From Octopus vulgaris (lineage: Eukaryota), in NCBI GenBank assembly GCA_951406725.2, contig OX597816.1, forward strand, positions 15,004,001 through 15,068,000: a DNA stretch of 64,000 nucleotides, given 5' to 3'. This document shows positions 53,461-57,104 of this stretch, one piece after another. The position numbers and the translations under genes are program-made. Under the pieces are notes generated by a model, which worked only from the letters and a program-made list of their open reading frames with translations, was not told the DNA's origin and made no database searches. Within the stretch, counting starts at the first letter, position 1, and each line of letters opens with the position of its first letter.

Positions 53461-53894
53461 AAAGCTTAGCGGTATTTCATCTGCCATTGTGTTCTGAGTT
53501 CAAATTCCACAAAGGTCACTTTTGCCTTTCATCCTTTCAGGGTTGACTAAATAAGTGTCAGTCACGCACTTACCCCTTCCCCCAAATATCAGGTCCTGTT
53601 CCTATAGTAGAAAGGATTATTATTATTATTATTAGTTAGGTGGAAAAAGGCAGCAAGATGGCAGAATCATTAGCATGCTGGGCAATACATTGGCAGTATT
53701 TCGTCTGCTGCTACATTCTGAGTTCAAATTCCGCCGAGGGTCACTTTGCCTTTCATCTTTTTGGGGTTGATAAATTGAGTATCAGTAAAACACTTGGGTC
53801 AGTGTAATCGAGTAGTCCTCTCCCCATCAGTTTCAGGCCTTGTGCCTTTAGTAAAAAAGATTATTACTATTATTATTATTATTATTATTATTAT

Positions 53895-54212
53895 GGGTTT
53901 TCTTCTTTCAAATTTGCTTCCATTTCTTGCCGAGTGTCTTCCCGACTCCTAGGGCAAAGAAACTCAGTATATACATTGGTAGGCCTTTTTTTTTCTTTTT
54001 TGATAGAAATAAAGTTAATTTAAAATACATGGGTAGTAATAGTTCTCACATCGACAATGCTCTTCTCAATACGTGTGATGTACCAGTTAAGACAATCTTT
54101 TGCACTTCTTGCAGGGATGGTAAGCCAGGGATCATTCTCATATAATTTTCGGTTCCCTTCTTGATCATTCCTAGTGCTCCTACGATCACTGGTATTGTAA
54201 CCGCCTTGAGAT
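53895..54212 (-). mobile_element. R4/Dong-like LINE 3' end in (AAT)n
   Basis: Minus strand LKAVTIPVIVGALGMIKK..QEVQKIVLTGTSHVLRRAL. Confidence 0.75.
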
Positions 54213-54494
54213 ATTATTATTATTATGTAGGTACGCGTACGTATGTGTATATACGTGAATGTATGTAGATGTATGTATGTATGAATATAACGCATGGGAG
54301 CGTGTATGTGTATGAGTGTACGAATGAGTGAGTGTACGTGCTAAAGAGTGTGCGTGAGTGAATGAGTGCTTGTTTTCCAGTAGACAGATAAATGGACTGG
54401 CTGTCATAGCCAAGATGTTTGTGACCAGCGGTCAAAGATAACAAAAGTAATAAATGAAGATAATAAAATTAAAATTAGGGAATGGGTCTGTATT

Positions 54495-54935
54495 TGTATG
54501 TGTATATATATGTGTGTATGTGTAGGTATGCATAGGTACACATATGTATATATATGTATATATATATATATATGTATGTATATGTATGTGTGTGTATATA
54601 TGTGTGTATGTGTATATATGTGTATATAGGGACTAGTGTGCTGTGTGTGCATGTGTGTGTGTGGATATGTGTGTGTATGCGTGTATGTGAGTATGTGTGT
54701 GTATGTGTATATATATTTTTCTGTGTGTATATGTATGTGTGGTCGTGTGTGTATATATACATGTGTGTATACGTGTATGCATGTGAGTGTGTGTATGTAT
54801 ACATATATGTGTATGTGTAGATATGTATATGTATGTGTAAGTGTATATATATGTATATATGTGTGTGTGTATGTATGTGTGTATGTATATGTATATATGT
54901 TTGTATGTGTGTGTATATATGTATACATATGTGCA
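54495..54935. repeat. Compound (TG/TA/TATG)n microsatellite
   Basis: Direct reading. Confidence 0.95.
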
Positions 54936-55176
54936 TAGGTATAAGTGAGAATCTCCTTATTTACCTAAAACTCTATTCCCTTTCTTTTATATATATTTTT
55001 ATATTTTTTTATATTTTTTAATTTTTTTATTTATTCTTCTATCTAATTTAACACTGACTCCTTGACCACTCCCCCAAGTATGATATTTTGCGCTATGCCT
55101 ACCCCCAAAAAGTCCCCCACCAACACCCCTTTAAACCTGCCTAAATGTATAAATGCCAATACAATTCTTGTTAACT

Positions 55177-55227
55177 AGCTTCCTGAAGATTTCTCTTGAA
55201 TGAAACAGTTCTAGTCCTGTAGAAGCT
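55177..55227 (+). ncRNA. Type I hammerhead ribozyme-like motif (canonical core)
   Basis: agcttc CTGAAGA t ttc tctt gaa t GAAA cag ttctagtc ctg TA gaagct: 6 bp stem I, 3 bp stem II (first pair mismatched), closed stem III, GUA site; insert about 54937-55312. Confidence 0.72.
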
Positions 55228-55313
55228 CCTTCTATATAATAAATTAATTTTACTCTGCTATGTATTGAGTACCTTCTTTACTGTGGTTAACCCCGAATCA
55301 ACCCGGGACCTAC

Positions 55314-55347
<34 letters not shown>

Positions 55348-55634
55348 GTATGTCTTTGTATCTGTGTTTGTTCCTCATCACTGCTTGACAGACAATGTTG
55401 ATGTATTTATGTCCTTGTAACTTTGCAATACAACAAAAGAGGCTGATAGAATAATTAGCTAACTCCAATGAGTGTAAGAAGTAAAAGCTAAAAGATAAAC
55501 TGAAATTATTAGTACAAAATAAAGACTGCGAAACAGCTGTAATCCTATGGATATCAAGTAGTTAAATAAGAGTTACTTTTATATACTATAACTCAGCATC
55601 CATGATTATCACTATTCTTCTTCTTCTTCTTCTT

Positions 55635-55706
<72 letters not shown>

Positions 55707-55818
55707 GAATTAAAATAAAAGTGGTAATTTTAATAAATGTGTACACACATACATATACATAGACACATAATAAACATGTCTATATTTTCTGAGTATGTAA
55801 TTCATATTGTCCTTTGTA

Positions 55819-55921
55819 CACCCCGATGATTCTCCATCCAAGGTATTTAAAATGTAAAATTATATATTTATATATGTTTTGTAATTTTAATTTTGTTTGT
55901 GAAATGAAACAATTGTAGGTG
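55819..55921 (+). ncRNA. Hammerhead-like motif, CCGATGA core
   Basis: cacc CCGATGA ... GAAA caattg TA ggtg; palindromic stem III; stem II decayed. Confidence 0.55.
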
Positions 55922-56020
55922 AATATGATAAATAATTAATAAATTAATTTGTATCCATTAGATCTCTTTGTTTCCTAACTCAATAATAATGTTTGATATT
56001 TTACGATATTTTGTATAATA

Positions 56021-56106
56021 TATTCATTGACGAAATATCTCTTTAAAGTATAATGTATGAAACCAGTGTATCTTGGATAAAAATATCCCTGTAAGAGGTT
56101 TGAATA
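56021..56106 (+). ncRNA. Degenerate hammerhead-like motif
   Basis: tattca TTGACGA ... GAAA cc..gg TT tgaata; stem I perfect, C3 mutated. Confidence 0.4.
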
Positions 56107-56313
56107 TCCTCATTATTACTATATGTGTGTGTGTGTGTGTTTGTGTATGTGTGTGTGTATAAAAATAAAATGGAGATATACAATTGTCAATTCAAAAATT
56201 AAAATTTATTAACATTATATTATATTATATTATATTCTTATAATGATATAATATAATATAATATGATAAATTACATACAATGTGTCAATTTTTACCCATA
56301 ATATCTGCGAATG

Positions 56314-56357
<44 letters not shown>

Positions 56358-56363
<6 letters not shown>

Positions 56364-57104
56364 CACTTGATTTTTTTTAATGTTTTTTTCCCCCATACTT
56401 TTGCGAGTTGGTTTAGGCAAACACTATCTGAGAGAGATCTTCTTTAAGTATTAGAAATAGCTGAAGAAATTTCTTTAGCTGCTATTTCTAATGAGTTCAG
56501 TATGTGGCAAAGTAATTTATTTTACTAAGCCCTTATATATAATGTAATATTTTGAATTCGCCTAAAATGGTCCCTTTACATACTGAATACTTGGTGAAAT
56601 TGATTAATAATTAATTAATTTTACCCTCAATTGTTGAAATTATAATTCATCTCTCTCTGTTAAATGCTGCGGTTTTCACCGTTAATACATGGTGTTTGTC
56701 AATTTTAACCCACGCTGGTGGAAAGGGGAGAGCAGAAATTCTTCGCTTGCATATTCGAATTTGATAGCACTTTTAGTTCGAGCAGAATTCTAGAGGTGAT
56801 TAGAAGCCGAAAGGGTATGCTCCCGACTTTCAGTGTTCCCAAATCCGATTCAAGGAATTCTGAGCTGACGAAAGAAATGTCGAATTGACTAATCTAGAAA
56901 CGTACGTTCTCAAATAACCTTTGCACTTGATTTTTTAATGTTTTTTTCTCCCATACTTTTGTGAGTTGGTTTAGGCAAACACTATCTGAGAGAGATCTTC
57001 TTTAAGTATTAGAAATAGCTGAAGAAATTTCTTTAGCTGCTATTTCTAATGAGTTCAGTATGTGGCAAAGTAATTTATTTTACTAAGCCCTTATATATAA
57101 TGTA
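56358..57104 (+). mobile_element. (TA)n-flanked element with ~187 bp terminal direct repeats (56358-56545 / 56918-57104) and an internal hammerhead
   Basis: CCTTTGCACTTGATTTT...AAGCCCTTATATATAATGTA twice at a 560 bp period. Confidence 0.75.
56861..56912 (+). ncRNA. Type I hammerhead ribozyme-like motif (canonical core)
   Basis: tgag CTGACGA a aga..gtc gaatt gac..tct a GAAA cgtacg TT ctca; palindromic stem III, GUU site. Confidence 0.7.

What the first reader, a model, noticed from the sequence alone, without database searches (positions are those of the whole stretch)
55177..56912. Cluster of up to five same-strand hammerhead-ribozyme-like motifs in 1.8 kb, from unrelated sequences
Seen in sequence: plus-strand motifs at 55177-55227 (CTGAAGA, 6 bp stem I, closed stem III), 55465-55545 (CCAATGA..GAAA cagctg TA, weak), 55819-55921 (CCGATGA), 56021-56106 (TTGACGA) and 56861-56912 (CTGACGA). 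Four of the five have their own complementary stem I, and stem III is usually a different 6 nt palindrome (CAGCTG, CAATTG, CGTACG). Different stems with the same pairing argue against chance. Established: Penelope-like elements and metazoan non-LTR retrozymes carry minimal type I hammerheads whose palindromic stem III allows dimeric cleavage. Inference: this is an insertion hotspot where any plus-strand transcript could be cut into defined 300-900 nt pieces that might circularise. None of this is visible in the ORF track.
Basis: partly seen in the sequence, partly recalled or inferred. Interest (0 to 1): 0.75.

Follow-up and report, generated by a model that had tools for sequence, protein, structure and literature searches.

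The report
Pile-up of Penelope-type hammerhead elements
This stretch is a pile of five separate jumping-gene insertions, each from a family carrying a predicted self-cutting RNA motif, which likely landed one after another in the same short repeats; only two motifs are intact here, so it is ordinary transposon debris rather than an RNA-cutting device.

Summary
The motifs are mostly real but the cluster is transposon debris. Five dispersed repeat families abut here. Motif 1 is the intact type I hammerhead of the terminal repeat of a young Hydra-clade Penelope-like element (PLE); other copies flank an intact 713-aa RT/GIY-YIG frame. Motif 5 is the intact hammerhead of a young, non-coding 558-nt tandem unit (retrozyme type) with compensatory stem changes and the same two-armed (TA)n insertion footprint. 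Motif 3 is a family hammerhead with a private U4C change. Motif 2 is only the 3' half of one. Motif 4 is a chance look-alike: its G12 is absent from 28 of 29 other copies. A decayed half hammerhead lies on the minus strand, so 'same strand' fails. Strict hammerheads occur about once per 50 kb in this genome and 2.5-fold more often beside other hammerhead elements, without strand bias. Cutting into 300-900-nt circles is not supported. Cleavage and expression were not tested. The scan has found such retrozyme families on other DNA of this genome before. Known kind, new members.

The parts
54226..55312 (+). F1: 5'-truncated 3' end (pseudo-LTR) of a young Hydra-clade Penelope-like element, ending in (TA)n
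   Evidence: 1,005 first-look candidates, best 40 at 99-100%; many copies align from 54226; 97% to the 5' repeat of a full element with an intact ORF in L147; same link in L354, L355
55177..55227 (+). Motif 1: intact type I hammerhead of F1; 6-bp stem I, U.U plus 3-bp stem II, 4-bp stem III with near-palindromic loop; predicted cut after 55221
   Evidence: same layout as Hydra hammerheads in File S2 of PMC8557442
55353..55457 (.). Fragment of a common SINE-like repeat whose microsatellite tail adjoins the F1 end
   Evidence: 12 further matches in the window, many in the genome; SINE label is recalled, not tested
55495..55570 (+).
   Evidence: 221 candidates, 78-89%
55700..56120 (+).
   Evidence: 1,063 candidates; alignment of 30 copies
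55819..55921 (+). Motif 3: family type I hammerhead, 76-nt stem II region, palindrome CAATTG; this copy has a private U4C core change at 55824
   Evidence: 28 of 29 other copies have T at 55824; 15 of 29 other copies keep the whole core
56020..56107 (+). Motif 4: chance look-alike inside F3, not a hammerhead of the family
   Evidence: G at 56059 in 1 of 29 other copies, G at 56102 in 3 of 29; U at core position 3 in 29 of 29
56160..56304 (-).
   Evidence: 270 candidates, 80-91%; alignment of 15 copies
56357..57104 (+). F5: 1.35 copies of a young non-coding 558-nt tandem unit (retrozyme type) between two (TA)n tracts
   Evidence: 2,158 candidates, best 40 at 99-100%; tandem and inverted arrays; longest open frame 62 codons, circular fold z -5.1; two fixed ends
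56861..56912 (+). Motif 5: intact type I hammerhead of F5; 4-bp stem I, A.A plus two-part stem II, palindrome CGTACG; predicted cut after 56908
   Evidence: compensatory changes in 2 pairs across 16 variants

Best explanation
The region is a stack of five independent insertions from different repeat families that each carry a type I hammerhead motif, likely placed one after another by Penelope-like (Hydra-clade) enzymes into (TA)n-type microsatellites. Shown: the five families, their copy numbers and ages, the link of F1 to an intact Hydra ORF, the damage to three of the local motifs, and the genome-wide excess of hammerheads next to hammerhead elements. Inferred: the GIY-YIG endonuclease cuts (TA)n, the RT copies the element RNA from both ends of the cut (two arms, two fixed ends), most copies are 5'-truncated so that only the hammerhead-bearing 3' end lands, and each insertion leaves new (TA)n flanks that are targets for the next. 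In source copies the hammerhead would free the element RNA from a longer transcript, probably as a dimer through the stem III palindrome. At this locus the motifs are passengers: F5 has one hammerhead only, and motifs 2, 3 and the minus-strand half are decaying neutrally.
For: Each piece is a dispersed family. F1 flanks a 713-aa frame with RWR, DKT, YRDD, CxCX5C, YIG, CxxC and CxH, the Hydra marks of PMC8557442 section 11; nearest Atlas clusters carry HTH_animal, GIY-YIG and RVT_1 on part of their members. Hydra-type endonuclease fragments have 32,266 first-look candidates; the F1 RT has dozens of 95-99% copies and a second young Hydra family has intact frames with flanking hammerheads. F1 arms end at 55312 (31 cases) or 55243 (8 cases) before (TA)n in 34 loci. 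Of 24 F5 loci, 8 show both end types, all 8 on opposite strands; 14 show one end; 2 none. An F5-related two-armed piece is nested in the microsatellite 3' UTR of the F1 element itself. Strict hammerheads: 12 in 600 kb of evenly spaced samples against 0-4 in 5 shuffles; 19 in 380 kb of flanks of 147 family loci, 2.5-fold higher, p 0.009, 11 same and 8 opposite strand. F5-lineage stems covary: 97.7% of cells paired, 14 cells with double changes against 4.5 in shuffles.
Against: No autonomous element with terminal repeats like F2, F3, F5 or F6 was found beside 30 Hydra-type, 30 Neptune-type or 30 Nematis-like endonuclease hits or 8 loci of the second Hydra family, so their mobiliser is inferred from the footprint only. 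The tails (about 69 and 97 nt) are longer than the 30-40 bp given in PMC8557442. F2 is not flanked by (TA)n here. The hammerhead fold of motif 1 lies 2.8 kcal/mol above the predicted minimum and vanishes in a longer context; full F2 copies do not fold as hammerheads by energy minimisation. The covariation rests on two pairs in related subfamilies (pairs measure: 87 of 500 shuffles reach it). The flank enrichment could reflect regional tolerance of insertions rather than targeting.
Confidence: 0.85

Rival explanations
1. The cluster is a co-opted processing cassette: a plus-strand transcript is cut at several hammerheads into defined pieces that circularise.
For: Four hammerhead-bearing families lie on the plus strand within 1.8 kb; two motifs are intact. 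A U4C core lowers but need not abolish activity in a viroid (PMC3088659 passage).
Against: Motif 4 is not a family motif, motif 2 is half, motif 3 is privately mutated; a half motif lies on the other strand; no strand bias elsewhere; F1 and F5 are 99-100% identical to dispersed copies, hence recent arrivals; stem III palindromes differ, so dimers between the motifs are not predicted.
Confidence: 0.04
2. The pieces are hammerhead-bearing repeats that met by chance or because the region tolerates insertions, with no shared targeting.
For: At about 2 strict motifs per 100 kb a pair within 1.8 kb has P about 6e-4 per stretch, roughly a thousand such places in the genome; one of 60 sampled 10-kb stretches held two different hammerheads 459 nt apart.
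Against: Five families abut with microsatellites at most junctions; flanks of family copies are 2.5-fold enriched; Hydra elements are reported to target (TA)n (PMC8557442 section 11).
Confidence: 0.09
3. All motifs are chance matches in AT-rich DNA.
For: No Rfam hammerhead match; one-mismatch descriptors give 5-12 false hits per 600 kb of shuffled DNA; motif 4 is such a case.
Against: Shuffle controls, family-wide core conservation with the only common F5 change at the free position 7, compensatory changes, position in the terminal repeats of an intact PLE.
Confidence: 0.02

Closest known systems
Hydra-clade Penelope-like elements (Craig et al. 2021, PMC8557442; sections 6 and 11, passages, supplement part 2 of 59 seen)
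   Same: F1 parent: C-terminal GIY-YIG, DKT, CxCX5C linker, CxxC and CxH, hammerhead in the terminal repeat with U.U at the base of stem II, (TA)n target, inverted arm, tail at one end. Hydra-1_Obim from an octopus is listed there with a hammerhead.
   Different: Different hammerhead sequence from Hydra-1_Obim; RWR instead of RWK; about 5 kb with a microsatellite-rich 3' UTR against 'generally <3 kb'; tail about 69 nt; no tree was built.
Metazoan non-LTR retrozymes (Cervera and de la Pena 2020, PMC7229834, passages seen; Li, Clavereau and Pollet 2026, 10.64898/2026.07.22.740005, parts 1-3 of 5 seen)
   Same: F5: non-coding, low-GC (34%), structured tandem unit with one type I hammerhead per unit, dispersed as monomers to short multimers; PLE-like footprint agrees with the proposed PLE origin.
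   Different: Unit of 558 nt is longer than the 220-390 nt of coral, mussel and axolotl but within the 51-972 bp range of Li et al.; A.A or U.U at the base of stem II; circles and cleavage not tested; this locus has one hammerhead and so fails Li et al.'s 'active' criterion.
Minimal PLE hammerheads with palindromic helix III (Cervera and de la Pena 2014, PMC4209133, parts 1-2 of 4 seen)
   Same: Type I, short stem I, palindromic stem III predicted to work as dimers, mostly solitary remnants of truncated elements, thousands per genome in many families.
   Different: F2, F3 and F6 have stem II regions of 123-130, 76 and 52 nt, longer than the 6-8-bp helices described in the parts read; G10.1-C11.1 is replaced in F1, F3 and F5.

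Membership tests
Type I hammerhead (motifs 1 and 5) | Core CUGANGA, GAAA, UH with stems I-III | tested here: met
   base of stem II is U.U or A.A; U.U is tolerated per PMC3088659 section 8
Type I hammerhead (motifs 1 and 5) | Stems kept by compensatory change | tested here: met
   Motif 5 lineage: 2 pairs, 14 cells. Motif 1 copies are too alike to test
Type I hammerhead (motifs 1 and 5) | Self-cleavage at the predicted bond | not testable with these tools
   no assay; no raw RNA reads
Type I hammerhead (motif 3, this copy) | Invariant core | tested here: not met
   private U4C; 28 of 29 other copies have U
Type I hammerhead (motif 2, this copy) | Both halves of the core present | tested here: not met
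   5' half missing
Type I hammerhead (motif 4) | Core conserved in the family | tested here: not met
   G12 in 1 of 29 other copies
Hydra-clade PLE (F1 parent) | Single ORF with RT and C-terminal GIY-YIG | tested here: met
   713 aa, YRDD at 347, YIG at 603; Atlas neighbours; Pfam scan found no RT or GIY-YIG family
Hydra-clade PLE (F1 parent) | RWK, DKT, CxCX5C, CxxC and CxH motifs; no GxKF/Y | tested here: met
   RWR variant, DKT 116, CxCX5C 567, CxxC 667, CxH 695, no GxKF/Y
Hydra-clade PLE (F1 parent) | Hammerhead in terminal repeats, (TA)n target, inverted arm, tail | tested here: met
Hydra-clade PLE (F1 parent) | Placement in the Hydra clade on an RT tree | not tested
   reference proteins were not obtained
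Non-LTR retrozyme (F5 family) | Non-coding tandem unit with a type I hammerhead in each unit | tested here: met
   arrays of 2-5 units; longest frame 62 codons
Non-LTR retrozyme (F5 family) | Expressed and processed to unit-length linear and circular RNA | not testable with these tools
   no run on record as RNA; contigs only
Non-LTR retrozyme (this locus) | [quoted passage not shown] | tested here: not met
   1.35 units, one hammerhead
Non-autonomous PLE derivative (F2, F3, F5, F6) | Sequence shared with the terminal repeat of an autonomous PLE | tested here: inconclusive
   none found in the PLE loci sampled; footprint fits for F5

The most novel reading that the evidence does not exclude
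This genome carries on the order of 50,000 type I hammerheads in many families, a large share with a 45-130-nt stem II and a 6-nt stem III palindrome that standard models miss; the few palindromes are shared across unrelated families (CAATTG in F3, F6 and others, CATATG, CGTACG), so they could act as a pairing code that lets different Hydra-mobilised retrozymes cleave one another as mixed dimers, with microsatellite pile-ups like this one bringing compatible partners onto one transcript.
Probability: 0.12. Interest if true: 0.65.

Novelty: new member of a known kind. Interest (0 to 1): 0.28.

Why it matters
As a locus it matters little: it shows how hammerhead-bearing retroelement ends stack up in microsatellites and how a neutral mutation can fake a ribozyme. 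As a sample of the genome it is useful: young Hydra-clade PLEs with intact frames and young retrozyme-type families share one insertion footprint, which makes the proposed PLE mobilisation of animal retrozymes testable, and the long-stem-II hammerheads escape Rfam. The searches made returned no paper on cephalopod retrozymes; PMC8557442 lists one octopus Hydra family with a hammerhead, PMC6962438 (passage) counts 235 Hammerhead_1 hits in giant squid, and the main text of PMC13282606 has no occurrence of ribozyme, hammerhead or retrozyme (its supplement was not seen).

Tried and rejected
Rfam scans gave no hammerhead: 35 matches in the region, and none among the 150 of 282 rows shown for the whole window. 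Pfam did not recognise the Hydra ORF. Idea that F1's parent is a Naiad, or that the long-stem-II hammerheads are the 'half cores' of Naiads: F1's parent is Hydra-type; no Naiad protein was found to test the rest, and a search by Pfam family PF26215 was not possible because the library lacks it. Neptune-type and Nematis-like elements are not linked to F2, F3, F5 or F6 in 30 loci each (12 of the 30 Nematis-like downstream stretches were printed, all 30 were compared by BLAST). Idea that F5 insertions begin at the cleavage site because this copy starts about 8 nt after it: 5' ends in other loci vary widely. RNA: no RNA holder listed; contigs of three guessed-RNA runs and one other run cover F5 and F1 but cannot show ends, strand or locus; neither evidence for nor against expression. 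One search used a structure string out of register and is void; one search is the corrected count. One search's F5 end probes were misplaced; one search is the corrected count. One search counted overlapping loci twice (21 hits in 363 kb); one search drops 18 overlapping or self loci and adds F6 loci. The CAGCTG/CGGCCG alternation in F2 (18 and 3 of 30) looks compensatory but copies were picked by likeness to the window and CpG decay can contribute, so it is not counted. Weak AT-rich likeness between F1, F3 and F5 tails (21-38 nt) is not taken as homology. PMC5785218 is not held; only its title was seen. A host gene around the cluster was not looked for.

Full report
Setting. The window lies at G000:C3:15004001-15068000 of a 2.8-Gb animal genome, rich in microsatellites and without long coding frames. 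That it is a cephalopod is my guess from recall and from earlier notes; it was not tested and nothing below depends on it.

Observation. A type I hammerhead descriptor finds motifs 1 and 5 with perfect cores and motifs 3 and 4 with one mismatch. Against dinucleotide shuffles of the region the counts are 2 versus 0.0015 and 4 versus 0.025. Motif 2 does not pass. Rfam reports no hammerhead in the region. The signal is therefore real but not seen by the standard models.

Each piece is a dispersed repeat. Searches of the genome gave 1,005 first-look candidates for the motif 1 element (F1), 221 for the motif 2 piece (F2), 1,063 for the stretch with motifs 3 and 4 (F3), 270 for the gap at 56160-56304 (F6) and 2,158 for the motif 5 element (F5) (40 scored each; these are not copy numbers). 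F1 and F5 are 99-100% identical to their best copies; F2, F3 and F6 78-91%. A SINE-like fragment (label recalled) lies between F1 and F2. Microsatellites mark most junctions.

Motif 1. F1 spans 54226-55312. In L147 the same sequence lies directly before an intact 713-aa frame and again after it; L354 and L355 repeat the link. The protein has RWR, DKT, YRDD, CxCX5C, YIG, CxxC and CxH and lacks GxKF/Y, the marks given for the Hydra clade in PMC8557442 section 11. The U.U at the base of stem II matches many Hydra hammerheads in that paper's File S2, which also lists an octopus family with a different hammerhead. Pfam did not recognise the protein; the Atlas puts it near clusters with HTH_animal, GIY-YIG and RVT_1 on part of their members. 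The window copy is a 5'-truncated 3' end. Its hammerhead fold is 2.8 kcal/mol above the predicted minimum and is lost in a 213-nt context; stem III can also self-pair between two molecules (-12.8 kcal/mol).

Motif 5. F5 is a 558-nt unit, 34% GC, longest frame 62 codons, circular fold z -5.1 against 60 shuffles. Other loci hold tandem runs of 2-5 units and inverted arms. The only common difference within the hammerhead among close copies is at the free position 7. With a sister family (3,011 candidates) 16 variants keep 97.7% of stem cells paired, with double changes in two stem II pairs (14 cells against 4.5 in shuffles; pairs measure reached by 87 of 500 shuffles). Stems I and II dominate the local fold, stem III does not form in the monomer, and the 8-nt palindrome self-pairs at -9.8 kcal/mol: a dimer is predicted, as for PLE hammerheads in PMC4209133. 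Of 24 loci, 8 show two arm ends, always one of each type on opposite strands, each followed by (TA)n; F1 shows the same two-end pattern. The window holds 1.35 units and one hammerhead.

Motifs 2, 3, 4 and a sixth. In F3 the family core is CUGAUGA; the window's C at 55824 is T in 28 of 29 other copies, and 15 of those 29 keep the whole core. Motif 4 rests on G56059, found in 1 of 29 other copies, and G56102, found in 3 of 29: it is an accident of decay. F6 has a clear family hammerhead on the minus strand; the window keeps a decayed 3' half.

Is the cluster special? Sixty evenly spaced 10-kb stretches from contigs C1-C11 hold 12 strict motifs against 0-4 in five shuffles, which extrapolates to the order of 50,000 per genome (wide margin). 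Flanks of 147 family loci hold 19 motifs of other families in 380 kb, 2.5 times the background (p 0.009), 11 on the same and 8 on the opposite strand. Hydra-type endonuclease fragments have 32,266 candidates, Neptune-type 13,071. An F5-related insertion is nested in the 3' UTR of the F1 element itself. Clustering is thus general here, and strand carries no signal.

Mechanism. Shown: five families, their state, the F1-Hydra link, shared footprint of F1 and F5, neighbour enrichment. From the literature: Hydra elements target (TA)n and carry hammerheads; animal retrozymes are proposed non-autonomous PLE derivatives; eight of nine elements tested there did not cleave. Inferred: serial insertion into microsatellites renewed by each event; hammerheads work, if at all, in source transcripts with two copies. 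Not shown: cleavage, expression, the mobiliser of F2, F3, F5, F6 (not found). No RNA run was on record.

Verdict. Observation partly confirmed, interpretation partly supported. New members of known kinds: one Hydra-clade PLE end, one retrozyme-type insertion, three decayed hammerhead remnants. Earlier notes of this scan describe other retrozyme families with the same footprint in this genome; none matched F5 by sequence. Interest 0.28. The bolder reading, a palindrome pairing code among long-stem-II hammerheads, is not excluded but has no direct support.

Noticed in passing
L286-L315, about 200-270 nt after the endonuclease stop: An abundant Neptune-type PLE family has a conserved hammerhead-like motif in its 3' UTR with A and U at core positions 3 and 8 (a swapped 3-8 pair) and a CCGG-type palindrome; CUGANGA descriptors miss it.
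   Followed up: no
L346-L353: A second young Hydra family (about 46% identical RT) with intact frames of 651-767 codons and a compact hammerhead with A.A at the base of stem II in both terminal repeats.
   Followed up: partly
L147:4239-4456 (also L148-L150, L354, L355): A two-armed F5-related mini-insertion sits in the microsatellite 3' UTR of the F1 element and is carried along in its copies.
   Followed up: partly
L211-L270 and flanks of family loci: Many further hammerhead families with 45-70-nt stem II regions and 6-nt palindromes (CATATG, CGATCG, CAATTG, GAGCTC, TGGCCA).
   Followed up: no
window 53880-54225, minus strand: Between two (ATT)n tracts, reads by eye like the C-terminal end of a non-LTR retrotransposon frame; F1 begins at its edge. 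Label recalled, not searched.
   Followed up: no
window 54226-54960: The TG/TA-rich low-complexity tract is part of the F1 element and is copied with it, so the element spreads microsatellite-like DNA.
   Followed up: partly
window 56450-56492 and 56598-56627: Long hairpins inside the F5 unit, near its two insertion ends; possible recognition signals.
   Followed up: no
L316-L345: A Nematis-like PLE family (label recalled; 1,996 candidates) ends in (TA)n with no obvious hammerhead in the 12 downstream stretches printed.
   Followed up: partly
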